This document shows positions 1-11,589 of a stretch of 64,000 nucleotides of DNA, piece by piece. The DNA is from Escherichia virus TH38, in the sequence record MT446410.1. One strand, written 5' to 3'. Each line of letters opens with the position of its first letter. Position 1 is the first letter of the stretch. Under the pieces are notes generated by a model. The model was given only the letters and a program-made list of their open reading frames with translations, was not told where the DNA came from and searched no databases. The position numbers were made by a program, and so were the translations under genes.

Positions 1-172
1 CCTAAGCCCCAAAATATTTAAAGTATATATTATATGGTATATTCATATGAATAGGGTGACACTGGCGCCATTATTGTGCAACCAAAAAAGACTACTCTGA
101 AAACGAGGAAAAGATTTTTTCCTGCCTGAATTAGATACGGAGTTAGCGATATGAAAACCGAACAACGTCATG
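1..172. repeat. Direct repeat copy A (171 bp, one indel near the end versus copy B); plasmid divergent-promoter region
   Basis: 1-166 identical to 3174-3339, then tcatg shared after a 1-nt indel; offset 3173 bp. Confidence 0.9.
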
Positions 173-321
173 ATCTTGTTAAAGATATTGAGGTTTTTGG
201 CGTATCCTTGTCTCTGTTGATTTCCAGAGCGAATGAGAAGTCTGTTACAATGCCATCTGGTCTAAGTCGGGAGCAGAGAAGAGCATGGGCAGCGGAGCAG
301 GCGCGCAAAATCCACAATTGA
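151..321 (+). CDS. Small ORF (56 aa) overlapping the start of the next ORF; possible antitoxin-like partner
   Basis: ATG at 151 with GGAG 8 nt upstream; 37-nt overlap with the 285-713 ORF in another frame; not in ORF track (<60 aa). Confidence 0.25.
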   Translation: MKTEQRHDLVKDIEVFGVSLSLLISRANEKSVTMPSGLSREQRRAWAAEQARKIHN

Positions 322-713
322 ATATTGTCTCATTCTCTGAGACCTTCAACCTTTATTACACATCCAGATATTCTGCAAAAACACTCGATAAAATCGATGA
401 TTTCATTGAGCATTTTGAAAAATACAATCTCTTTGGCGATCCTTTAAAAGGATATCCAGCTTGGACTGGCAAAGTATCGCCATCGTGGAAAGTGCCTGAT
501 CATTACGAAAACAAAGAAGCTATTGAGAAGTATGCTAGAGCTAACAAATTATGGCATGCTCATTTAGGCGATCCGGTTTTTAAAGATACGTTTCATGGGA
601 AATACAAGGTTTCTGACTGGGTTATTCATTTCCAGCGGCTGACACCGAACCATATAAAGCTTTTAGAGCTTGGATACCATGACCCAATGAAGCTACCTCA
701 AAACTTTGAATGA
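285..713 (+). CDS. Hypothetical protein, possibly a toxin-like (YafO-type?) plasmid protein; true start may be internal
   Basis: 142-aa ORF with a WHAHLGDP motif; operon-like overlap with the upstream small ORF; family assignment is a weak recollection. Confidence 0.3.
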   Translation: MGSGAGAQNPQLNIVSFSETFNLYYTSRYSAKTLDKIDDFIEHFEKYNLFGDPLKGYPAWTGKVSPSWKVPDHYENKEAIEKYARANKLWHAHLGDPVFKDTFHGKYKVSDWVIHFQRLTPNHIKLLELGYHDPMKLPQNFE

Positions 714-737
714 TCGAGCGGCAGGCTAAATGAAATC

Positions 738-766
738 TTGAGATTCATTCAGTCTCGTCGTAATCT
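738..766 (+). promoter_or_regulatory. RNA II (replication primer) promoter, -35 TTGAGA / 17 bp / -10 TAATCT
   Basis: Same architecture and near-identical sequence to the pMB1/ColE1 RNA II promoter. Confidence 0.6.
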
Positions 767-774
767 CACTATTG

Positions 775-1330
775 TAAAAACGAAAAAACCACCCTGGCAG
801 GTGGTTTTTCGAAGGTTAGTTAATCCTGGCAGATTCTCTAACCGTGGTAACAGTCTTGTGCGAGACATGTCACCAAATACTGTCCTTTCAGTGTAGCCTC
901 AGTTAGGCCGCCACTTCAAGAACTCTCGTTACATCTCTCGCACATCCTGCTTACCAGTGGCCGTTGCCAGTGGCGTTAAGTCGTGTCTTACCGGGTTGGA
1001 CTCAAGACGATAGTTACCGGATAAGGCGCAGCGGTCGGGCTGAACGGGGGGTTCGTGCACACAGCCCAGCTTGGAGCGAACGACCTACACCGAACCGAGA
1101 TACCAACAGCGTGAGCTATGAGAAAGCGCCACGCTTCCCGAAGGGAGAAAGGCGGACAGGTATCCGGTAAGCGGCAGGGTCGGAACAGGAGAGCGCACGA
1201 GGGAGCTTCCAGGGGGAAACGCCTGGTATCTTTATAGTCCTGTCGGGTTTCGCCACCTCTGACTTGAGCGTCGATTTTTGTGATGCTCGTCAGGGGGGCG
1301 GAGCCTATGGAAAAACGCCTCCCGCGCGCC
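775..1330 (+). ncRNA. RNA II pre-primer of ColE1-type origin; RNA-DNA switch expected near 1320-1330
   Basis: Long near-identical stretch to the pMB1/ColE1 ori (e.g. ccagtggcg...taagtcgtgtcttaccgggttggactcaagacgatagttaccggataaggcgcagcggtcgggctgaacggggggttcgtgcacacagcccagcttggagcgaacgacctacaccgaac). Confidence 0.8.
779..886 (-). ncRNA. RNA I antisense copy-number control RNA (approximate ends)
   Basis: Antisense to the RNA II 5' end; hairpin aaaaaaccaccctggcaggtggttttt corresponds to the RNA I terminator; loop sequences differ from pMB1. Confidence 0.6.
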
Positions 1331-1547
1331 CTTCTTCTGGGTCTTTGTCTTTTGCTCACATGTTCTTTCCGGTTTTATCCCCCGATTCTGTGGATAACCG
1401 TATTACCGCCTTTGAGTGAGCTGACACCGCTCGCCGCAGTCGAACGACCGAGCGTAGCGAGTCAGTGAGCGAGGAAGCGGAAGAGCGCCTTATGTGACAT
1501 TTTCTCCTTACGCTCCTCTATGCCGTTCTGCATCCTGTCCGGATGCG

Positions 1548-1742
1548 TTATATCCCGGTAAGATTTTCCGCTTCAAAGCGTGTCTGTATGCTGTTCTGGA
1601 GTTCTTCTGCGAGTTCGTGCAGTTTCTCACACATGGCGGCCTGTTCGTCGGCATTGAGTGCGTCCAGTTTTTCGAGCAGCGTCAGGCTCTGACTTTTTAT
1701 GAATCCCGCCATGTTGAGTACGGCTTGCTGCTGCTTATTCAT
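1548..1742 (-). CDS. rop: Rop/Rom RNA I-RNA II modulator protein
   Basis: 64 aa, MNKQQQAVLNMAGFIKSQSLTLLEKLDALNADEQ... closely matches ColE1 Rop; convergent with RNA II as in pBR322. Confidence 0.9.
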   Translation of the reverse strand: MNKQQQAVLNMAGFIKSQSLTLLEKLDALNADEQAAMCEKLHELAEELQNSIQTRFEAENLTGI

Positions 1743-2001
1743 CTTTTCGTTTTCTCCGTTCTGTCTGTCATCTGCGTTGTGTGATTATATCGCGTACCAC
1801 TTTTCGACTGTTTTGCTGCCGCTATTCTGCCGCTTGGCTTTTTGACGGGCATTTCTGTCAGACAACACTGTCACTGCCAAAAAACTGCCGTGCCTTTGTC
1901 GGTAATTCGAGCTTGCTGACAGGACAGGATGTGCAATTGTTATACCGCGCATACATGCACGCTATTACAATTGCCCTGGTCAGGGCTTTGCCCCGACACC
2001 C

Positions 2002-2349
2002 ATGTCAGATACGGAGCCATGTTTTATGACAAAACGAAGTGGAAGTAATACGCGCAGGCGGGCTATCAGTCGCCCTGTTCGTCTGACGGCAGAAGAAGAC
2101 CAGGAAATCAGAAAAAGGGCTGCTGAATGCGGCAAGACCGTTTCCGGTTTTTTACGGGCGGCAGCTCTCGGTAAGAAAGTTAACTCACTGACTGATGATC
2201 GGGTACTGAAAGAAGTTATGAGACTGGGGGCGTTACAGAAAAAACTCTTTATCGACGGCAAGCGTGTCGGGGACAGGGAGTATGCGGAGGTGCTGATCGC
2301 TATTACGGAGTATCACCGTGCCCTGTTATCCAGGCTTATGGCAGATTAG
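2002..2349 (+). CDS. MobC-like ribbon-helix-helix mobilization accessory protein (no relaxase gene seen)
   Basis: 115 aa; RLTAEEDQEIRKRAAECGKTVSGFLRAAALG resembles the MobC family motif. Confidence 0.45.
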   Translation: MSDTEPCFMTKRSGSNTRRRAISRPVRLTAEEDQEIRKRAAECGKTVSGFLRAAALGKKVNSLTDDRVLKEVMRLGALQKKLFIDGKRVGDREYAEVLIAITEYHRALLSRLMAD

Positions 2350-2569
2350 CTTCCCGGAGAGAAAACTGTCGAAAACTGACGGTATGAACACCGTAAGCTC
2401 CCAAAGTGATCACCATTCGCTTTCATGCATAGCTATGCAGCGAGCTGAAAACGATCCTGACGCATCCTTCCTGTTTTTCCGGGGTAAAACATCTCTTTTT
2501 GCGGTGTCTGCGTCAGAATCGCGTTCAGCGCGTTTCAGTGGTGCGTACAATTAAGGGATTATGGTAAAT
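2350..2569. promoter_or_regulatory. cer-like multimer resolution site; XerC/XerD core at 2540-2569
   Basis: Exact ColE1 cer core GGTGCGTACAA-TTAAGGGA-TTATGGTAAAT at 2540-2569; accessory region assumed upstream. Confidence 0.8.
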
Positions 2570-2737
2570 ATATGAGCTATGCGATAACTTTAACTGTGAA
2601 GCGATGAACCCATTACAGGCAAAGCCAATTACTCCTGACAGTGGTTTAGCCAGAAGCAGGGCTACCAAGACCAATGCAATAAGTAATATATCGTTTTGCT
2701 ATCGTGCATCGCTCGCGCTCAGTTCCATTGTGCTTTT

Positions 2738-3166
2738 TTAAGCTGTCGTTTTTCTTACGGTATATACCGGTTTTTTATGGCGTGGTTTCTTAACTTGTTC
2801 AGCTACTGATGGACCCATTGTATCTAGGTAGTCAACTAGCTTTGTTAGATCATAAATATTGCGACCACCATATCGGCGATCACTCTTCGATGTTGGTTTC
2901 TTGTCCAAGAGATTAGCTTTTTCAAGATCATTGATAGCTCTCTGAACAGTCCGTACAGAAACCCCCATACGTATGGCTAGACTTTCCATTGACGGATGCG
3001 GCCACTCTTGCAAACTCCACCAGTGAACGATCAGGTTAAGTAGTGTGTTAAAGGCCACTGAAGTTAGCTTTTTCTCGTTTTGTATAAAAAACAATACGGT
3101 AGGCACTGCTGTCCAGCCAAGAGACAAACCGCCAGCTTTCCATTTATTCTTAACGGAGTAAGTCAT
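2738..3166 (-). CDS. Winged-helix/HTH DNA-binding protein (plasmid-borne, function unknown)
   Basis: 142 aa; LAIRMGVSVRTVQRAINDLEKANLL HTH; start 8 bp from the repeat. Confidence 0.45.
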   Translation of the reverse strand: MTYSVKNKWKAGGLSLGWTAVPTVLFFIQNEKKLTSVAFNTLLNLIVHWWSLQEWPHPSMESLAIRMGVSVRTVQRAINDLEKANLLDKKPTSKSDRRYGGRNIYDLTKLVDYLDTMGPSVAEQVKKPRHKKPVYTVRKTTA

Positions 3167-3173
3167 TGATTTT

Positions 3174-3344
3174 CCTAAGCCCCAAAATATTTAAAGTATA
3201 TATTATATGGTATATTCATATGAATAGGGTGACACTGGCGCCATTATTGTGCAACCAAAAAAGACTACTCTGAAAACGAGGAAAAGATTTTTTCCTGCCT
3301 GAATTAGATACGGAGTTAGCGATATGAAAACCGAACAACTCATG
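3174..3344. repeat. Direct repeat copy B; plasmid/phage junction at about 3340-3345
   Basis: Identity with 1-172 ends at 3344, after which sequence is phage-like. Confidence 0.9.
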
Positions 3345-3557
3345 GTTGAGGTTCTGAAGACGCTCATTTCTGTCTTCAACTTGCATAATAAGATCATTAA
3401 GTGTTACTTTAACTTTCTCATTATACATCTCATCCACTCGGACTAGAGATTTATACATTCTCTCCCAGCTTGCTGCTTTGTTTCTGAGAACAATAAACCC
3501 TATAACGCTGATAGTTAAACAGCTTACAAAAAGGAATTTATATACCTCTAAAGTCAT
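3216..3557 (-). CDS. Junction-spanning chimeric ORF: about 71 N-terminal residues phage-encoded (TM helix + coiled coil), C-terminus read from the plasmid repeat
   Basis: ORF crosses the repeat boundary at about 3343; N-terminus FLFVSCLTISVIGFIVL is hydrophobic. Confidence 0.35.
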   Translation of the reverse strand: MTLEVYKFLFVSCLTISVIGFIVLRNKAASWERMYKSLVRVDEMYNEKVKVTLNDLIMQVEDRNERLQNLNHELFGFHIANSVSNSGRKKSFPRFQSSLFWLHNNGASVTLFI

Positions 3558-3756
3558 ATTATTTACCCTTTATCAGAGATTAAAAGTAATATTATTTAAG
3601 TAAGTTATATTTAGTAAACTTATTTTCTAAGAAATTTTCAAAGGGTCTATATACAGAGCATTACCCATAGTCCCAGAATACTACCATCTTTTTCAATAAA
3701 TTTACTAAGTGGTTGGTTTATAAAGGAATTTAGTTTGTCAAATCTGGCACTAGTGA

Positions 3757-4146
3757 TTATTCCCTAGAGCTATTATCGAACACTAAATCACCACAATACA
3801 TAGGATTGGCATACCATTTTGGCACCCCTTCGCTCTTACTCTGAAAGTAAGTCCCACTGTACAGCGGAACATAATTCTTCTTAAGGGCACGTTTAGCTAG
3901 CCGCTCGCTTTCTCCAATGGCTTTCTTAGTCATCGGATTTTTATCACGAATCAGCTTTACATAACGTTTATAAGGTTTCTCCTGTTTTAATAGTACCGGA
4001 ATCCACTCAAACTGGTTCTTTTGTCTTATCACCTGTTCAGCGGTCAGTTTTCGTTGGGCCATTCTATTTATTACGGTATCCGCAACTAGGGCTTTACATG
4101 CGGTTGGCTGATTCCCTGCCTCATAATAAATAGTCAATGTCAACAT
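3757..4146 (-). CDS. Cell wall hydrolase, SleB/CwlJ-like (Hydrolase_2 domain)
   Basis: YYEAGNQP...ALVADTVINR...QKNQFEW motif pattern. Confidence 0.5.
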   Translation of the reverse strand: MLTLTIYYEAGNQPTACKALVADTVINRMAQRKLTAEQVIRQKNQFEWIPVLLKQEKPYKRYVKLIRDKNPMTKKAIGESERLAKRALKKNYVPLYSGTYFQSKSEGVPKWYANPMYCGDLVFDNSSRE

Positions 4147-5753: not shown

Positions 5754-5787
5754 TAAAAGAAAAGGCGCTACCCGTTAAGATAGCGCC
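5754..5787 (-). terminator. Rho-independent terminator (minus strand)
   Basis: Hairpin ggcgctatcttaacgggtagcgcc plus T-rich tail on the minus strand. Confidence 0.55.
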
Positions 5788-5811
5788 TTATGTTTATTTA
5801 AATTGTCTTAC

Positions 5812-6720
5812 TTATGCCGCCTGACGTGCCGCCATAATTTCAGCCGCTTTACGCAATACCTCTTCCTCTTCTGCTTTCGCCGCTTGTTCGGTACGGGTAG
5901 CAACCGTTGAAGAGATACGACCGCGCAGACTCTCTAACTTCTCCTGCATAGCTGCAACAGTCTTTTCCATTTCATCAGCGTATGAATCGAGTGATTCTAA
6001 TTCCTTGCTTGATGCGTTCATCAGGTAGTTATCAGAGATCGCTACCGTTGAGGCCGTGACTTTCTTGATGAGTGAATCAAAAGATTTCTTAACCTTTCCT
6101 ACTTCTTCACTCAGGGCGATAGTGTTATCACTAGTTGCGCCGTTGCGCTCATCAGCCAGTAATTTGGCTTCAATACGGATTGCATTCAAGCGTTCAACCA
6201 AAGCGTAAATATCTTGGTTAAAGTCTTCCTTGTTTTTCGCCGGGATTTGCAGGTGTGCCGCCACATTGTCATTGCAACCCTTGTAAAAGTTAGGGTTATC
6301 GACTTCAATTTCACGGCCTAAAGCAAAGTTTTCGAAAGCGTTTGACCAGCGAGCGCGGTTTTGTTCCATTTTGGTTTTAATTTGCGCTTCTTTCGCGTCT
6401 TCTTTAGCTTTCGCCTCACCTTCCAGATTAATCCACTTTTTACGACCATTTGCCGCATCAGTGTTAAACTTGATAGGAGTTAAGAAAGTAATTGCAGTGG
6501 CAATCACATCCATATCACGAAAACGTTCAGTTAACAAGAAGTCAACCGCCGTCTGCAATACGTCCAGCTTTTTACCGTTACTGCGGAAGTGCTGTAAGTG
6601 CCCTAACAGGAAGTTAGAAACATCTTGTTTGATCGCCGCGTTATTGCTACGAATGTTGTTAGCCAGTGCATTAAAACCAGATTCGTTAACCAGAGTAAAA
6701 ACTTTAGCCATGATATTCAC
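5812..6720 (-). CDS. Hypothetical early protein (302 aa)
   Basis: Long ORF, first gene downstream of the promoter-rich AT region. Confidence 0.55.
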   Translation of the reverse strand: MNIMAKVFTLVNESGFNALANNIRSNNAAIKQDVSNFLLGHLQHFRSNGKKLDVLQTAVDFLLTERFRDMDVIATAITFLTPIKFNTDAANGRKKWINLEGEAKAKEDAKEAQIKTKMEQNRARWSNAFENFALGREIEVDNPNFYKGCNDNVAAHLQIPAKNKEDFNQDIYALVERLNAIRIEAKLLADERNGATSDNTIALSEEVGKVKKSFDSLIKKVTASTVAISDNYLMNASSKELESLDSYADEMEKTVAAMQEKLESLRGRISSTVATRTEQAAKAEEEEVLRKAAEIMAARQAA

Positions 6721-6780
6721 CTTTCAATTGTAAGGGCGCTATTGCCCCGCTCTCTATGAGCTTGTTTAAGTCACTATTAA

Positions 6781-6820
6781 CTTATCAATAACCACTCATT
6801 GTTAAGTAATTATTGATAAG
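6781..6820. promoter_or_regulatory. Perfect 11-bp inverted repeat CTTATCAATAA / TTATTGATAAG (18-bp spacer), with a third CTTATCA nearby; candidate operator
   Basis: Seen directly, about 60-100 bp upstream of the 5812-6720 gene start. Confidence 0.4.
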
Positions 6821-7627
6821 CGGGGCGGTCTTATCAGGAGTTAAACTTGCCGCCCCCTTATCCGTGATGTTTCATCTGGTATCTTTAATTAGTCGCTATA
6901 AACGAAGCCGACCTGATAGCGATGATCAATCATCACAATAAGGCAGTGCGTCCGACTCTAATTAGTTACATTTATTGTAACCGTCGGCAATATCGTCTAC
7001 TTTGCTTTCGCTCTCGCCTATCCTTTTGTATCAACTCTCAATCACTAGCCATCGCCCACAACGGGATGCTATTGTGAAAGAGTCATTGACCGTCTAATGT
7101 TCTGACGTTTTATATCTTTCGGCAAGTTTACTACATAAACTGACTATGTACGCCATCGATAGTGGCCTCAAATCATTCACATCGTAAACGTTCACACTAA
7201 ACCTTATTGTTAAATAGCAATTTGCCACTTTTTAACCACTCCCCGCCGCCCTCAATTGAGCGTTAATTCTTCGGGCTTGCCTACCCTGATTAACTTCTTT
7301 CACTGTAGCGCCTTGTTAGCGATGACCGCCGCTACCCTTAACCGTGGGCGATTAGCTTAAGTCTTTGCGTACACTCAATGAATCCGTTTATCAGTGGTGA
7401 CGTTTCCAGTAAGGGATTGTAAGATTGTTTACTCTGATAACTTAGAGAATCTTACACCGTTTTATCTGGTATGCTATCCGATGGTTATTATCATCTAGCA
7501 TATTCAACCGATATATGAGAATGTTTAAATTGTTAAAGAGCGGTAAATCTGTCAGTGTGCTTTCTCACACTACGCAACTGTTAGCCGTTGTTACGCTTTC
7601 CTTAAGCGATGATTTGCTTAAGTGTGC

Positions 7628-7656
7628 TCATTATGAATCATGTTGTTTTCGCTGTC
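7628..7656 (-). promoter_or_regulatory. Sigma70-consensus early promoter (TTGACA-17 bp-CATAAT), leftward
   Basis: Minus strand ttgacagcgaaaacaacatgattcataat; A/T-rich UP-like sequence upstream. Confidence 0.6.
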
Positions 7657-8118
7657 AACCACTTTTTTAATCTTTTTCGTCGTTCCCTTTATTGGGAGGA
7701 TATATCAATCAGCTATATTTGATTGAAGATTAAGCGGCAAGGCTTAAACTTATGATTCATATTTTTAAAGAGCGGTTACTACACTTTCAGCTTAACACAT
7801 CGTGTTAACTTGTCAAACTCTTTTTTATCATCTTCTTTTATTCCGTTCCCTTATCTCGCTTGAATCTATGCGAAAGGGCAAGATGATAAGTCTGATTTGT
7901 CTTTTAGGAATCTAGTGCGCTTTCAAGCATCGACCATTTGAAAGTATCGAACAAATGAGGCTTATTTTGTTGCTCATCGTCCGCCTGTTCACGTATGAAT
8001 CAGGAATCAATTCTAGTGGTCAACTAAGCGCCTTATAGTAATGACGTTCCCGCCACCTGTAAGACAAATCATATTTTTAAAGAGCGGGATTTTTTAAGTC
8101 ATCGCTGACTGAGTGCTT

Positions 8119-8147
8119 ATTATGAATCAGGCTGTTTTCGGTGTCAA
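8119..8147 (-). promoter_or_regulatory. Sigma70-consensus early promoter (TTGACA-17 bp-CATAAT), leftward
   Basis: Minus strand ttgacaccgaaaacagcctgattcataat; paralogous to the 7628-7656 promoter. Confidence 0.6.
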
Positions 8148-8557
8148 TACTCTTTTTAAGAATATTTTCACTTTCTAGCCTGATTTTTAAAGAGCGTAGC
8201 ACCTTCATTGTGCGTCTTACTGTCGGTATTCCTACCGCTCCCCGTTGAAGCCTTTTACCGTGATGCTAATCACCTATCGAGGAGTTTTTACTACTTGTTG
8301 TTACTTACTGCTTACTACGGGATTCATATTACTATAAAGGAAAATCATGTCAATACCCTTTTTTCAAATTATTTTTCATCTCACTGTTTTATAAAGGAAT
8401 TTATTTTATTGTCGGTAGGACACCGGAAGAAATCAGGAGGTAAAAGAGCGGGGGCGCGTGATACATCATAGAAAACGGCTTGTAAAGCAATAATAAGCGG
8501 CCTGAAACGCACTGTAGCGAGCTAAAAGGGAGTAAGCCATACAATCACCCTAGAAAT

Positions 8558-8580
8558 GAAAAAAGCCTCATAGCGAGGCT
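8558..8580 (-). terminator. Rho-independent terminator (minus strand)
   Basis: Hairpin agcctcgctatgaggct plus T6 on the minus strand. Confidence 0.6.
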
Positions 8581-8657
8581 TATAGGAAGGTTTTAAAGTA
8601 TCAGATAAATTATGACCATAGGCATGACCACGGCACAATAAAGCAGAAATAGTAACC

Positions 8658-9035
8658 CTATGGATTTACACATTGACCGTTACCGGATTCAATTTCATTC
8701 ATGGACTCATCAAAGAGCGTTAACGATGAGCGCATCAAGTGATCAATCATGACTTGTTTACCGGTTGTTTCATTTACCAGTTGAACAGTTTTATCATATG
8801 ATTGCACATGATCGAAATCATTTACATGCAAAATAATAACTTTAGGTGACTTTTTACCGGTTTCATAGTTTTCTACAAGATAAGTACATTGCAAGCCGTC
8901 AACCGTAGCAGGGGAGAATGTTGCAGCCTTAACGCTACCCATAGCCGATAGGAGCACACCCAGCAGGAGAACGACAAGGAAGAAGCCCACGAATACTTTT
9001 ACTACAAATTTGATAATACCCATGATAATAATCAC
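8658..9035 (-). CDS. Hypothetical membrane-anchored early protein
   Basis: ORF with an N-terminal hydrophobic segment. Confidence 0.45.
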   Translation of the reverse strand: MIIIMGIIKFVVKVFVGFFLVVLLLGVLLSAMGSVKAATFSPATVDGLQCTYLVENYETGKKSPKVIILHVNDFDHVQSYDKTVQLVNETTGKQVMIDHLMRSSLTLFDESMNEIESGNGQCVNP

Positions 9036-9127: not shown

Positions 9128-9382
9128 CTAGTTGCTATCCTCGCCAAAAAATGCTACGCTAACCTGTTCCACTTCTTCCAGCGACAGAAGAATCCCGCGT
9201 TGGGCTAAATACTTCCCAATAGTGAGATAATCCTGTACTAAATAGACCGCAGGAAAGCTAATAGTTTTTATTTCACCCTTAGTTAGAAAGGACAAATAAG
9301 TGTAGTCGATTGACTCATCAAAGGAGAGCGTAACGCCACCGTAATTGTGCGTGTCAATCAGTGCGATTGTTTCATTACCCAT
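9128..9382 (-). CDS. Hypothetical protein (start adjusted to internal ATG coupled to the upstream stop)
   Basis: GGAGGTGG RBS and ATG overlapping the stop of the 9375-9638 ORF. Confidence 0.4.
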   Translation of the reverse strand: MGNETIALIDTHNYGGVTLSFDESIDYTYLSFLTKGEIKTISFPAVYLVQDYLTIGKYLAQRGILLSLEEVEQVSVAFFGEDSN

Positions 9383-9638
9383 TAGTGCCACCTCCAACAA
9401 GGCCATGATTGAGCAGGTTAGCCAGTGACAAGCCACCGTCAAAATATATAGAACGAAAATCATCACGGTTAATTTCAACGCCGATAGCAGATAGCCAATT
9501 TTTAGCCTGTTTAAAATCCATAACGCAGAAAGTAACAACAGGCAACGTTAACTGACCATGACGCAGATTAAACGTGATAGCGGTATCGCCAACAAAAACA
9601 GAATAGCCATTAGATAATCTAACTTCTTTGATAGCCAT
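9375..9638 (-). CDS. Hypothetical protein (87 aa)
   Basis: ORF. Confidence 0.4.
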   Translation of the reverse strand: MAIKEVRLSNGYSVFVGDTAITFNLRHGQLTLPVVTFCVMDFKQAKNWLSAIGVEINRDDFRSIYFDGGLSLANLLNHGLVGGGTNG

Positions 9639-11190: not shown

Positions 11191-11589
11191 GTTGAAAAGG
11201 AAGGTAAAGGCATTGCCAATAACCCTTTTTTAAATGAGGACTCCCCCCTTTTAGGAAACGCGCGGGAAGCGGCTAGCCCCATTCGGTCAAATTGAAATTT
11301 TAAACTGTTATATATAAGGTTGAAAGAGAACTTATGTGGAAAATTAAGTTAATCATTAAGCAATTTAAATGTGATCATGAGTACTATCGGATTCGTAAAG
11401 CTTACGGGGATGAAAGAGTTCACACCCTTTATAAGTCCACTTGGAGATGTAGTAAGTGTGGTAAGCTTAAACACAGCACATGGATGGATAGGTCTTAATG
11501 GAATGGATATTCTGGTTAGTAATAGTCTTCTGTTTATTCATCTGCTTCTCTATAGCAAGATGTATCAAGTATGATTAAGGAACATTAGT

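What the first reader, a model, noticed from the sequence alone, without database searches (positions are those of the whole stretch)
6730..8650. AT-rich 1.9-kb region with two sigma70-consensus promoters and a five-copy motif-plus-hairpin repeat
There are almost no long ORFs here. Two paralogous minus-strand promoters (TTGACA-17 bp-CATAAT at 7628-7656 and 8119-8147) resemble strong early promoters of the T7 A1/A2/A3 kind. Five copies of TTTTAAAGAGCGG, each followed by a short hairpin, lie in the transcribed regions and could be RNA processing sites, small-ORF leaders or regulator binding sites.
Basis: seen in the sequence. Interest (0 to 1): 0.55.

Follow-up and report, generated by a model that had tools for sequence, protein, structure and literature searches.

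The report
Phage rRNA-style antitermination sites, structured RNA
The gene-free 1.9 kb of this phiEco32-like coliphage holds four host-type early promoters, each followed by a hairpin and a perfect copy of the BoxA signal that E. coli uses in its ribosomal RNA operons. These lead into a conserved, heavily folded untranslated RNA of about 900 nt that matches no described RNA family.

Summary
The window is a phiEco32-like Kuravirus, preceded by an unrelated plasmid. The finding covers the known gene-free spacer between phi32_125 and phi32_124, which is transcribed on the minus strand.

- **Promoters:** both are real, but they were already listed for SU10 and phiEco32.
- **Repeated motif:** read on the transcribed strand, it is BoxA (GCTCTTTAAAA or GCTCTTTAACA). 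The window has four perfect matches to the published consensus GYTCTTTAANA. One shares 16 nt with the E. coli rrnB leader. Every one of 24 relatives, and four distant metagenomic relatives, keeps 2-5 perfect copies. All are on the sense strand, and only the N position varies. A hairpin precedes each copy in the RNA, which is the rrn order, not the lambda order.
the ~900 nt from the last promoter to gp124 form a structured RNA. It has 248 predicted pairs, 75 with compensatory changes (34 in shuffles, 6-11 in slid controls), and 99% of cells are paired. It has no Rfam match and no conserved ORF.

Best reading: tandem sigma70 promoter, hairpin and BoxA cassettes recruit the host Nus factors, as at rrn operons. 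This lets RNA polymerase transcribe, and perhaps helps fold, a long untranslated RNA. Nus binding, transcript ends and the RNA's function are untested.

The parts
8563..8581 (-). Intrinsic terminator closing the upstream early operon (phi32_128-125 homologs)
   Evidence: Stem of 8 pairs plus a T-run. Annotated as a terminator in SU10.
8326..8353 (-). Promoter-like module P(a): TTGACA-16-TAATAT, preceded by an A-tract
   Evidence: 10/12 match. Present at the same relative position in many relatives. Not listed in the SU10 table.
8185..8195 (-). BoxA-1, GCTCTTTAAAA, about 124 nt downstream of the predicted P(a) start. Hairpins lie at 8237-8224 and 8213-8199, upstream in the RNA.
   Evidence: Perfect match to GYTCTTTAANA. 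Hairpins.
8119..8147 (-). Promoter P(b): TTGACA-17-CATAAT with an upstream A-tract
   Evidence: 11/12 match. Listed for SU10.
8098..8109 (-). Short hairpin GUCA-GCGA-UGAC, 12 nt upstream of BoxA-2 in the RNA
   Evidence: (I9).
8075..8085 (-). BoxA-2, GCTCTTTAAAA, about 27 nt downstream of the predicted P(b) start
7789..7816 (-). Promoter-like module P(c): TTGACA-16-TAAGCT, a weak -10
   Evidence: Read. Listed for SU10 with 'alt -10?'. Distant Kuravirus relatives have TAAGAT here.
7763..7773 (-). BoxA-3, GCTCTTTAAAA, preceded in the RNA by the hairpin UUAACAC-GAU-GUGUUAA
7630..7658 (-). Promoter P(d): TTGACA-17-CATAAT. It is the most conserved promoter. Predicted start near 7622.
   Evidence: The -10 is kept in 23 of 24 relatives. 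Equivalent promoters sit ~75-85 nt upstream of the last BoxA in distant relatives.
7553..7572 (-). boxB-like hairpin (GUGUG-AGAAAG-CACAC core), 12 nt upstream of BoxA-4
   Evidence: Helix 5: 3 of 7 pairs have compensatory changes, and one position shows four pair types. Distant relatives carry a hairpin of unrelated sequence at the same place.
7531..7541 (-). BoxA-4, GCTCTTTAACA, followed by ATTTA. It shares 16 nt exactly with the E. coli rrnB leader.
   Evidence: It lies in the most conserved 30-nt block of the leader, with 27/30 columns invariant.
6721..7622 (-). Untranslated, structured leader RNA of about 900 nt, running from the P(d) start to the gp124 start codon. At least three domains are predicted: 7529-7231, 7210-6935 and 6913-6733.
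   Evidence: - RNAalifold gives 248 pairs, 75 of them with compensatory changes.
- No Rfam match.
- No conserved ORF.
7208..7218 (-). BoxA-like GCTATTTAACA (C4 replaced by A). It is part of a long-range helix, not a BoxA.
   Evidence: Its 3' part pairs in helix 7210-7201 with 6944-6935. Its N position covaries in TH34. Absent from distant relatives.
8439..8449 (-). Degenerate BoxA-like GCTCTTTTACC, between the terminator and P(a)
   Evidence: Present in only 7 of 24 relatives. Probably not functional.
5812..6720 (-). The only gene of the unit: the phi32_124 homolog (299-302 aa), of unknown function
   Evidence: Matches phrog_13018, unknown function, with no Pfam domain above cut-off. Always found directly downstream of the leader.
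5762..5789 (-). Strong intrinsic terminator directly after the phi32_124 homolog, closing the unit
   Evidence: Stem of 12 pairs plus a T-run. Terminators are annotated at this place in SU7 and 4E8.

Best explanation
The spacer is an early transcription unit built like the leader of a ribosomal RNA operon.

**What the sequence shows**
- Host sigma70 RNA polymerase would start at up to four tandem strong promoters. Each carries an A-tract upstream of TTGACA.
- Each transcript soon displays a hairpin followed by a consensus BoxA.

**What is inferred from established knowledge of rrn operons, CRISPR arrays and suhB**
- NusB-NusE(S10) bind BoxA on the nascent RNA.
- Together with NusA, NusG and SuhB they convert the polymerase into a Rho-resistant, processive complex that can also chaperone RNA folding.
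- This allows transcription through 0.9-1.6 kb of untranslated RNA and into the single downstream gene (the phi32_124 homolog), ending at the terminator at 5789-5762.

**The leader RNA**
- Shown here: the last ~900 nt of the leader is a conserved, multi-domain structured RNA of the minus strand.
- Not known: what the RNA does. I consider a structured cis-acting leader or RNP partner for gp124 expression somewhat more likely than a free-standing trans-acting RNA.

The promoters themselves were already described.
For: **BoxA identity**
- Four perfect matches to the published gamma-proteobacterial consensus GYTCTTTAANA (PMC5725501), all on the transcribed strand within 660 bp.
- BoxA-4 shares the 16-mer GCTCTTTAACAATTTA with the E. 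coli K-12 rrnB leader. SU7 and Bas88 copies extend the identity to 18-19 nt.

**BoxA conservation**
- All 24 relatives have 3-5 perfect copies. All are on the sense strand and inside the spacer, with none antisense. Only the N position varies.
- The copies persist although the promoter half of the spacer is mosaic, at 49-97% identity.
- Four metagenomic relatives, whose gp124 homolog is 46-70% identical, keep 2-3 perfect sense copies. The last one sits at -901 to -936. Two of them show no blastn similarity to the window's leader.

**Architecture**
- Each promoter module has its own BoxA.
- The translated upstream operon has none.
- A hairpin of variable sequence precedes BoxA by 3-26 nt (8-12 nt at the last copy). 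This is the rrn order of boxB then boxA.

**Structured RNA**
- 248 pairs. 75 have changes on both sides, against 34.2 +/- 3.2 in shuffles (0 of 500 reach it) and 6-11 when partners are slid. 99.1% of cells are paired, against 33-47% when slid.
- Column-shuffled alignments give 10-13 compensatory pairs and -83 to -99 kcal/mol, against 79 pairs and -254.8 kcal/mol for the real alignment.
- The same structure on the opposite strand loses 675 cells to non-standard pairs, because 638 cells are G-U pairs. The RNA is therefore the minus strand.
- Held-out distant sequences keep 53-75% of the pairs, with 34-50 pairs changed on both sides.

**Literature basis**
- BoxA protects long untranslated RNAs from Rho at CRISPR arrays (PMC7665894).
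- The rrn complex resists Rho and aids RNA folding (abstracts of PMC6614801 and PMC10250234).
Against: - There are no transcript ends, no Nus binding data and no functional data for this phage. The primary phiEco32 transcription paper (Pavlova 2012) could not be read.
- The leader RNA has G > C (210 against 163) and is heavily paired. It may therefore be a poor Rho substrate anyway, which weakens the anti-Rho rationale and favours a speed or folding role.
- No boxC-like GU-rich element follows BoxA.
- The related Salmonella phage 7-11 has no consensus BoxA at its early end, so the device is not general to all phiEco32-like phages.
- BoxA can also mediate repression, as at suhB (PMC5725501).
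- P(a) and P(c) are weaker predictions.
- The covariation comes from related sequences, and many changes are shared by clades.
Confidence: 0.62

Rival explanations
1. These are lambda-type nut sites. BoxA plus the adjacent hairpin (boxB) would be bound by a phage-encoded N-like protein, giving antitermination that also reads through intrinsic terminators such as the one after gp124.
For: A hairpin lies next to every BoxA. Lambda nutL reads CGCUCUUAAAAAUUAA (my own knowledge), which resembles CGCUCUUUAAAAAU. Many small early proteins here have unknown function.
Against: - The hairpin is 5' of BoxA, not 3'.
- Its sequence and loop differ between modules and between phages, so there is no common protein-binding boxB.
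- The BoxA copies are full rrn-type consensus, not the weakened lambda form that needs N.
- No N-like family was detected.
Confidence: 0.08
2. The BoxA array works against the host or as a brake, not for read-through. Abundant early RNAs with several consensus BoxA copies would soak up NusB-NusE and SuhB and starve the host rrn operons. Alternatively, BoxA would repress gp124 expression, as at suhB.
For: There are four consensus sites per region behind very strong promoters. BoxA-mediated repression exists at suhB (PMC5725501). A sequence complementary to BoxA lies near the gp124 ribosome binding site (6756-6746; I11).
Against: The layout of one BoxA per promoter, placed upstream of a long untranslated RNA, is the one seen at rrn operons and CRISPR arrays. 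The phage already shuts off sigma70 transcription through gp79 (PMC12276001). The proposed anti-SD or anti-BoxA pairings show no covariation and are not kept in distant relatives.
Confidence: 0.12
3. The repeats act at the DNA level. They would be iterons or operators for a phage or host DNA-binding protein, for example at a replication origin activated by the strong promoters.
For: This is a long gene-free region with repeated motifs, strong promoters and inverted repeats. No replication origin has been defined for these phages, to my knowledge.
Against: - The motif equals the RNA element BoxA down to its one free position.
- It is strictly co-oriented with transcription in 28 phages, and in unrelated phages with divergent transcription.
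- The neighbouring sequence evolves by RNA-type compensatory changes with G-U pairs, on one strand only.
Confidence: 0.06
4. The motif-plus-hairpin units are RNA processing or stability signals (RNase III or RNase E sites, or 5' stabilisers), as in the T7 early transcript.
For: Hairpins followed by an A/U-rich single strand resemble RNase E contexts. The long helices of the leader could be RNase III substrates. This is compatible with the main explanation.
Against: It does not explain the exact 10-position identity to BoxA or the freedom at N. The hairpin sequences are not conserved. There are no processing data.
Confidence: 0.1

Closest known systems
Antitermination leader of E. coli rrn operons (tandem P1/P2 promoters with UP elements, then boxB hairpin, BoxA and boxC, bound by NusB-NusE, NusA, NusG, SuhB and S4)
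   Same: - Tandem strong sigma70 promoters with upstream A-tracts.
- A hairpin followed by BoxA.
- A BoxA identical to the rrn form over 16 nt, and over 18-19 nt in SU7 and Bas88.
- A position in front of a long, untranslated, highly structured RNA.
   Different: - No boxC-like element.
- Four cassettes in series instead of one leader copy and one spacer copy.
- The RNA product is unrelated to rRNA and is followed by a protein gene.
- It sits in a virulent phage.
- Binding of Nus factors is untested.
BoxA elements upstream of CRISPR arrays and in the suhB 5' UTR (Stringer 2020, PMC7665894; Baniulyte 2017, PMC5725501)
   Same: A consensus BoxA that works without lambda N, placed near the start of a long untranslated transcript. 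Here the match to the same consensus, GYTCTTTAANA, is perfect.
   Different: Those cases have a single copy in the host chromosome. Here there is an array of 2-5 copies, each tied to its own promoter, in a phage.
Phage lambda nutL and nutR (BoxA plus boxB, dependent on N)
   Same: A phage early transcript that carries BoxA next to a hairpin directly downstream of early promoters.
   Different: The order of hairpin and BoxA is reversed. The BoxA is full consensus, not the weak lambda variant. There is no conserved boxB loop, and no N homolog was found.
Large structured non-coding RNAs associated with phages (GOLLD, ROOL and similar; my own knowledge, present in Rfam)
   Same: Size class (about 0.6-0.9 kb), many covarying helices, phage-borne, unknown function.
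   Different: No match to any Rfam 15 family, even at E <= 1. It is placed as a 5' leader of a protein gene behind BoxA cassettes. So far it has a narrow distribution: Gordonclarkvirinae-like coliphages and a few metagenomic relatives.
T7 A1/A2/A3 early promoter cluster
   Same: Several near-consensus host promoters clustered a few kb from the genome end that carries the early genes. Here that is 2.9-3.6 kb from the right end, which maps near window 11274.
   Different: In T7 they lead directly into translated early genes with RNase III sites. Here they lead into an untranslated structured RNA with BoxA.

Membership tests
BoxA (NusB-NusE binding RNA element, rrn type) | Sequence match to the gamma-proteobacterial consensus GYTCTTTAANA | tested here: met
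   Four perfect matches at 8195-8185, 8085-8075, 7773-7763 and 7541-7531 (minus strand). The consensus is taken from PMC5725501.
BoxA (NusB-NusE binding RNA element, rrn type) | Lies on the transcribed strand, downstream of a promoter, so that it appears in nascent RNA | tested here: met
   All copies are on the strand of the flanking genes. Each is 9-124 nt downstream of a predicted start. The starts are predicted, not mapped.
BoxA (NusB-NusE binding RNA element, rrn type) | Purifying selection on the specified positions, with freedom at N | tested here: met
   In 24 relatives and 4 distant relatives every copy is perfect. Only N varies (A, C, T or G). No antisense copies.
BoxA (NusB-NusE binding RNA element, rrn type) | Single-stranded in the RNA | tested here: inconclusive
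   In the consensus fold BoxA-4 is unpaired except for two positions, which sit in an unsupported long-range helix. The other copies were not modelled across phages.
BoxA (NusB-NusE binding RNA element, rrn type) | Binds NusB-NusE and recruits SuhB, NusA and NusG to RNA polymerase | not testable with these tools
   Needs EMSA or anisotropy measurements, or ChIP.
BoxA (NusB-NusE binding RNA element, rrn type) | Confers resistance to Rho, or read-through, on downstream transcription | not testable with these tools
   Needs BoxA mutants, with and without bicyclomycin.
rrn-type antitermination leader (boxB-boxA-boxC) | Hairpin (boxB) upstream of BoxA | tested here: met
   Hairpins lie 3-26 nt upstream of every copy. 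The one before BoxA-4 covaries, and in distant relatives it is replaced by hairpins of other sequence.
rrn-type antitermination leader (boxB-boxA-boxC) | GU-rich boxC downstream of BoxA | tested here: not met
   rrnB has ...ATTTATCAGACAATCTGTGTGGGCAC. The phage has ...ATTTAAACATTCTCATATATCGG.
Lambda-type nut site | A boxB hairpin 3' of BoxA, with a conserved loop bound by an N protein | tested here: not met
   The hairpin is 5' of BoxA, and the loops differ (AGAAAG, GCGA, GAU, AUAAAA, UUAAG ...).
Lambda-type nut site | A phage-encoded N-like antiterminator | tested here: inconclusive
   Eight neighbouring early proteins have no Pfam hit above cut-off and only unknown-function or doubtfully named PHROGs. 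Short arginine-rich proteins could escape detection.
Structured RNA (evolutionarily conserved secondary structure) | Compensatory base changes above controls, specific to one strand | tested here: met
   - 75 pairs with changes on both sides, against 34.2 +/- 3.2 in shuffles and 6-11 when slid.
- 10-13 in column shuffles.
- The antisense strand loses 675 cells to non-standard pairs.
- A held-out test on distant relatives supports the structure.
Any described RNA family (Rfam 15) | Covariance-model match | tested here: not met
   No match at gathering score anywhere in the region. None at E <= 1 except one chance miRNA hit.
Sigma70 early promoters | Near-consensus -35 and -10 elements with 16-18 nt spacing, conserved, in front of early genes | tested here: met
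   Predicted earlier for SU10 and phiEco32.
Sigma70 early promoters | Mapped transcription start and dependence on the sigma70 holoenzyme | not testable with these tools
   The primary paper (Pavlova 2012, PMC3275717) is not held.

The most novel reading that the evidence does not exclude
The phage copies the logic of a ribosomal RNA operon. It borrows the host's rRNA antitermination and chaperone machinery, through tandem promoter, hairpin and BoxA cassettes, to make and fold a new ~0.9-kb structured RNA. That RNA, possibly together with gp124, would act in host takeover.

Arrays of consensus BoxA may also be a general, so far undescribed feature of the host-polymerase-transcribed leading ends of virulent phages. 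They also occur in T5-like Proteus phages, upstream of the pre-early genes A1 and A2, and at the left end of a T7-like Vibrio phage. There they might speed or protect early transcription, and with it transcription-coupled genome entry.
Probability: 0.3. Interest if true: 0.85.

Novelty: new variant of a known kind. Interest (0 to 1): 0.72.

Why it matters
BoxA-mediated antitermination without lambda N is known for rRNA operons, CRISPR arrays and a few host genes. Among phages it is textbook only for lambdoid nut sites, where it depends on N.

If this reading is right, a virulent coliphage carries serial rrn-type cassettes in front of a large structured RNA. That would show phages exploiting the host's rRNA transcription and folding machinery directly.

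It would also add a new, experimentally tractable large RNA, since the host is E. coli, phiEco32 biochemistry is established and BASEL collection isolates exist. It may explain how phiEco32-like phages carry host polymerase through about 1 kb of untranslated sequence.

The same arrays in T5-like and T7-like phages hint at a broader rule for immediate-early transcription.

Tried and rejected
- **Primary papers not readable.** The phiEco32 papers (Pavlova 2012, Savalia 2008) are not held. Whether they mention BoxA or the leader could not be checked. No held paper contains both 'boxA' and 'phiEco32', or both 'boxA' and 'pre-early'. One literature query was badly designed and gave only noise.
- **Few new relatives from collections.** A protein-based search of IMG/VR gave 5 loci, metagenome contigs gave 8 close ones and bacterial genomes gave none. 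The useful distant relatives came from the protein search plus contig look-ups.
- **No BoxA in phage 7-11.** The early end of Salmonella phage 7-11 has no consensus BoxA, so the idea that this explains 7-11 read-through was dropped.
- **Small ORFs rejected.** Only ORFs of 15-44 codons with non-ATG starts exist, and none is convincingly conserved.
- **Two BoxA-like copies rejected.** The copy at 7208-7218 is part of a covarying helix. The copy at 8439-8449 is poorly conserved.
- **Long-range pairing not supported.** A pairing between the 5' flank of BoxA-4 and the gp124 Shine-Dalgarno region (7548-7538 with 6725-6715) is predicted, but it is invariant and absent from distant relatives.
- **Covariance model gave little.** A model of the 7401-7279 arm found only a weak hit in one distant relative (20 bits, E 0.01) and none in three others.
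- **No tRNAs.** None in the window.
Full report
**Identity of the sequence**

Bases 6700-8700 match 97-100 phage records. All are Escherichia or Shigella phages of the phiEco32 group (Gordonclarkvirinae: Kuravirus, Suseptimavirus, Nieuwekanaalvirus). The best matches are TH06 at 97% and SU10 and phiEco32 at about 93%.

The finding is the ~1.95-kb gene-free spacer between phi32_124 (window 5812-6720) and phi32_125 (window 8658-9035). Both genes are on the minus strand. Every relative fetched has an equivalent gap of 1.8-2.2 kb.

Window 1-3173 is not phage. It is plasmid pMUT1 of E. coli Nissle 1917 at 100% identity. The phage starts near 3340, and its right physical end maps near 11274.

**Checking the observation**

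- **ORFs.** The region is ORF-poor.
- **Composition.** It is only marginally AT-rich: GC 0.396 against 0.420 for the phage part.
- **Promoters.** The two TTGACA-17-CATAAT promoters are at 8147-8119 and 7658-7630 on the minus strand.
  - They are paralogous.
  - They are two of only four matches of 11/12 or better in the 60.7-kb phage part, where simulated sequences give a mean of 1.2.
  - Two more modules share the same A-tract plus TTGACA design: 8353-8326, and 7816-7789 with a poor -10.
- **Prior description.** These promoters are not new. The SU10 paper lists three sigma70 promoters in this spacer and a terminator after the upstream gene, 'like phage phiEco32' (PMC4281155). The primary phiEco32 papers are not in the held library.

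**The repeated motif is BoxA**

All flanking genes and promoters are on the minus strand. Read there, TTTTAAAGAGCGG becomes CCGCTCTTTAAAA.

- The published gamma-proteobacterial BoxA consensus is GYTCTTTAANA (PMC5725501). The window has four perfect matches, all on the minus strand between 7531 and 8195.
- The core GCTCTTTAA occurs five times in the whole 64 kb, against 0.93 expected. Four of those copies are here.
- BoxA-4 with its flank, GCTCTTTAACAATTTA, is identical over 16 nt to the E. coli K-12 rrnB leader. In SU7 and Bas88 one copy reads GCTCTTTAACAATTTATC(A), which is 18-19 nt of identity.

**BoxA conservation**

- Each of the 24 relatives has 3-5 perfect copies. All are on the sense strand and inside the spacer. 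There are none antisense and none in the translated upstream operon. Only the unspecified N position varies.
- This holds even though the promoter half of the spacer is mosaic, at 49-97% identity with large indels.
- A protein search for the downstream gene found relatives at 46-70% amino-acid identity on 43-100-kb metagenomic contigs. Their loci have a gene-free gap of up to ~3 kb.
- Those loci carry 2-3 perfect sense-strand BoxA copies. The last one is at -901 to -936, against -821 in the window, and sits ~75-85 nt downstream of a TTGAC(A/T) promoter. This holds even for the two loci whose leaders show no blastn similarity to the window.

**Architecture of the cassettes**

- Each promoter module has its own BoxA, 9-124 nt downstream of the predicted start.
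- A hairpin precedes each BoxA in the RNA (3-26 nt upstream; 8-12 nt at the last copy).
  - The hairpin before BoxA-4 (7572-7553) covaries, with four pair types at one position.
  - In distant relatives it is replaced by hairpins of unrelated sequence at the same distance.
- Hairpin then BoxA is the rrn order, as the rrnB leader read shows. It is not the lambda nut order.
- The hairpins share no common loop, and no N-like protein family was found among eight neighbouring early proteins. I therefore file these as rrn-type BoxA cassettes that do not need N, not as nut sites. No boxC-like element follows BoxA.
- Two weaker BoxA-like copies were rejected.
  - 7208-7218 is part of a covarying long-range helix.
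  - 8439-8449 is present in only 7 of 24 relatives.

**The 3' half is a large structured RNA**

The stretch from the P(d) start (about 7622) to the gp124 start is conserved at 72-97%, similar to the adjacent coding sequence at 82-99.7%. It has no conserved ORF.

- **Predicted structure.** RNAalifold on 24 phages gives 248 pairs, 75 of them with changes on both sides.
- **Controls.**
  - Shuffling 3' partners gives 34.2 +/- 3.2 such pairs, and 0 of 500 shuffles reach 75.
  - Sliding partners by 1-3 columns gives 6-11 such pairs and 33-47% of cells paired, against 99.1% for the real structure.
  - Refolding column-shuffled alignments gives 10-13 compensatory pairs and -83 to -99 kcal/mol, against 79 pairs and -254.8 kcal/mol.
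- **Strand.** The structure contains 638 G-U cells. Evaluated on the opposite strand it drops to 88.6% standard pairs. The RNA is therefore the minus-strand transcript.
- **Held-out test.** A profile of the alignment detects the leader in the distant relatives, with E-values from 1e-108 to 4e-11. Those sequences keep 53-75% of the predicted pairs, against 28-47% when slid, and 34-50 pairs are changed on both sides. The lower values partly reflect sequence-only alignment at about 50% identity.
- **Covariance model.** A model of one arm gave only a weak hit in one distant relative.
- **Known families.** No Rfam family matches, even at E <= 1.
- **Promoter half.** It also shows some covarying hairpins, on a gappier alignment.

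**The unit as a whole**

A terminator (8581-8563) closes the upstream operon. Then come the four promoter, hairpin and BoxA cassettes, the ~900-nt structured leader and a single gene of unknown function (phrog_13018, no Pfam domain). A strong terminator follows at 5789-5762, and terminators are annotated at that place in SU7 and 4E8. The leader and this gene are always adjacent.

**Mechanism**

- **Shown here:**
  - the sequence identity to BoxA;
  - its strand, position and conservation;
  - the RNA structure.
- **Inferred from established knowledge:**
  - NusB-NusE bind BoxA on the nascent RNA and assemble the Nus complex.
  - That complex makes RNA polymerase resistant to Rho on untranslated RNA, as at CRISPR arrays (PMC7665894).
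  - At rrn operons it also assists RNA folding (abstracts of PMC6614801 and PMC10250234).
- **Caveat:** the leader is rich in G and heavily paired. It may be a poor Rho target, so the speed or folding role may matter more than protection from Rho.
- **Unknown:** what the RNA does.

**Rivals**

These are scored separately in the report:
- N-dependent nut sites;
- a Nus-factor sponge or BoxA-mediated repression;
- DNA-level iterons or a replication origin;
- RNA processing signals.

**Side observation**

The 16-mer GCTCTTTAACAATTTA occurs in at least 120 IMG/VR contigs, and only 2 of them have a 16S gene downstream. That number is not clearly above chance for a collection of this size.

Several contigs, however, hold co-oriented clusters of 3-4 consensus BoxA copies without any gp124 homolog.
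- **T5-like Proteus phages PM135 and Stubb.** The clusters lie in the 1.6-kb divergent gene-free region upstream of the pre-early genes A2 and A1. The copies point outward on both strands.
- **T7-like Vibrio phage VEN.** The clusters lie at the left end, upstream of the RNA polymerase gene.

BoxA arrays may therefore be a wider feature of immediate-early, host-transcribed phage regions. I found no paper in the held library that says so.

**Verdict**

- The promoters are real but already known.
- The region also contains a previously undescribed large structured RNA.
- I could find no earlier description of the BoxA arrays or of the RNA. Their functions remain inferred.

Noticed in passing
window 1-3344: The first 3173 bases are the complete cryptic ColE1-type plasmid pMUT1 of E. 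coli Nissle 1917, at 100% identity, including RNAI at 780-881. Bases 3174-3344 repeat bases 1-172. The phage sequence starts near 3340. The window is therefore a concatenation or chimera of a plasmid and a phage contig, and the host was probably Nissle 1917.
   Followed up: yes
L162 (Proteus phage PM135, NC_042090.1 95124-99524) about 1348-2735; L161 (Vibrio phage VEN, NC_047903.1) 682-1288: Co-oriented clusters of 3-4 perfect BoxA consensus sites occur in unrelated virulent phages. In T5-like Proteus phages they lie in the 1.6-kb gene-free divergent region upstream of pre-early genes A2 and A1, and the copies point outward on both strands. In a T7-like Vibrio phage they lie at the left end, upstream of the RNA polymerase gene. 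This suggests a wider use of BoxA in immediate-early phage transcription.
   Followed up: partly
L036, L037, L039 (metagenomic contigs) 950-4000: Distant relatives, whose gp124 homolog is 46-70% identical, have a gene-free gap of about 3 kb upstream of that gene. The neighbouring genes are on the opposite strand, so there the BoxA and leader unit heads a divergent gene cluster.
   Followed up: partly
window 7474-7461 and 6884-6871 (minus strand): An invariant 14-nt repeat, AUACCAGAU(A/G)AAAC, occurs twice in mostly unpaired parts of the leader RNA. It could be a protein-binding or tertiary-contact motif.
   Followed up: no
window 6746-6756: AGAGAGCGGGG, close to the gp124 ribosome binding site, is complementary to the CCCGCUCU(U)U of the BoxA copies. 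It could act as an 'anti-BoxA'. It is invariant, so covariation gives no test.
   Followed up: partly
window 8658-9035, 9375-9638 and their homologs in RefSeq records: Small early proteins of 87-125 aa are labelled 'terminase', 'polymerase' or 'tail protein' in RefSeq and PHROG annotation of this phage group. They have no Pfam support, so these names look like propagated misannotations.
   Followed up: partly
window 52658 (minus strand): This is the only perfect 12/12 sigma70 consensus in the phage part (TTGACA-17-TATAAT), lying far from the early region.
   Followed up: no
L026 (Salmonella phage 7-11, 83000-89916): The related phage 7-11 has no consensus BoxA near its validated early promoters. 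It does carry a gene annotated 'anti-termination protein Q-like' (gp136). Read-through in that phage is probably achieved differently.
   Followed up: partly
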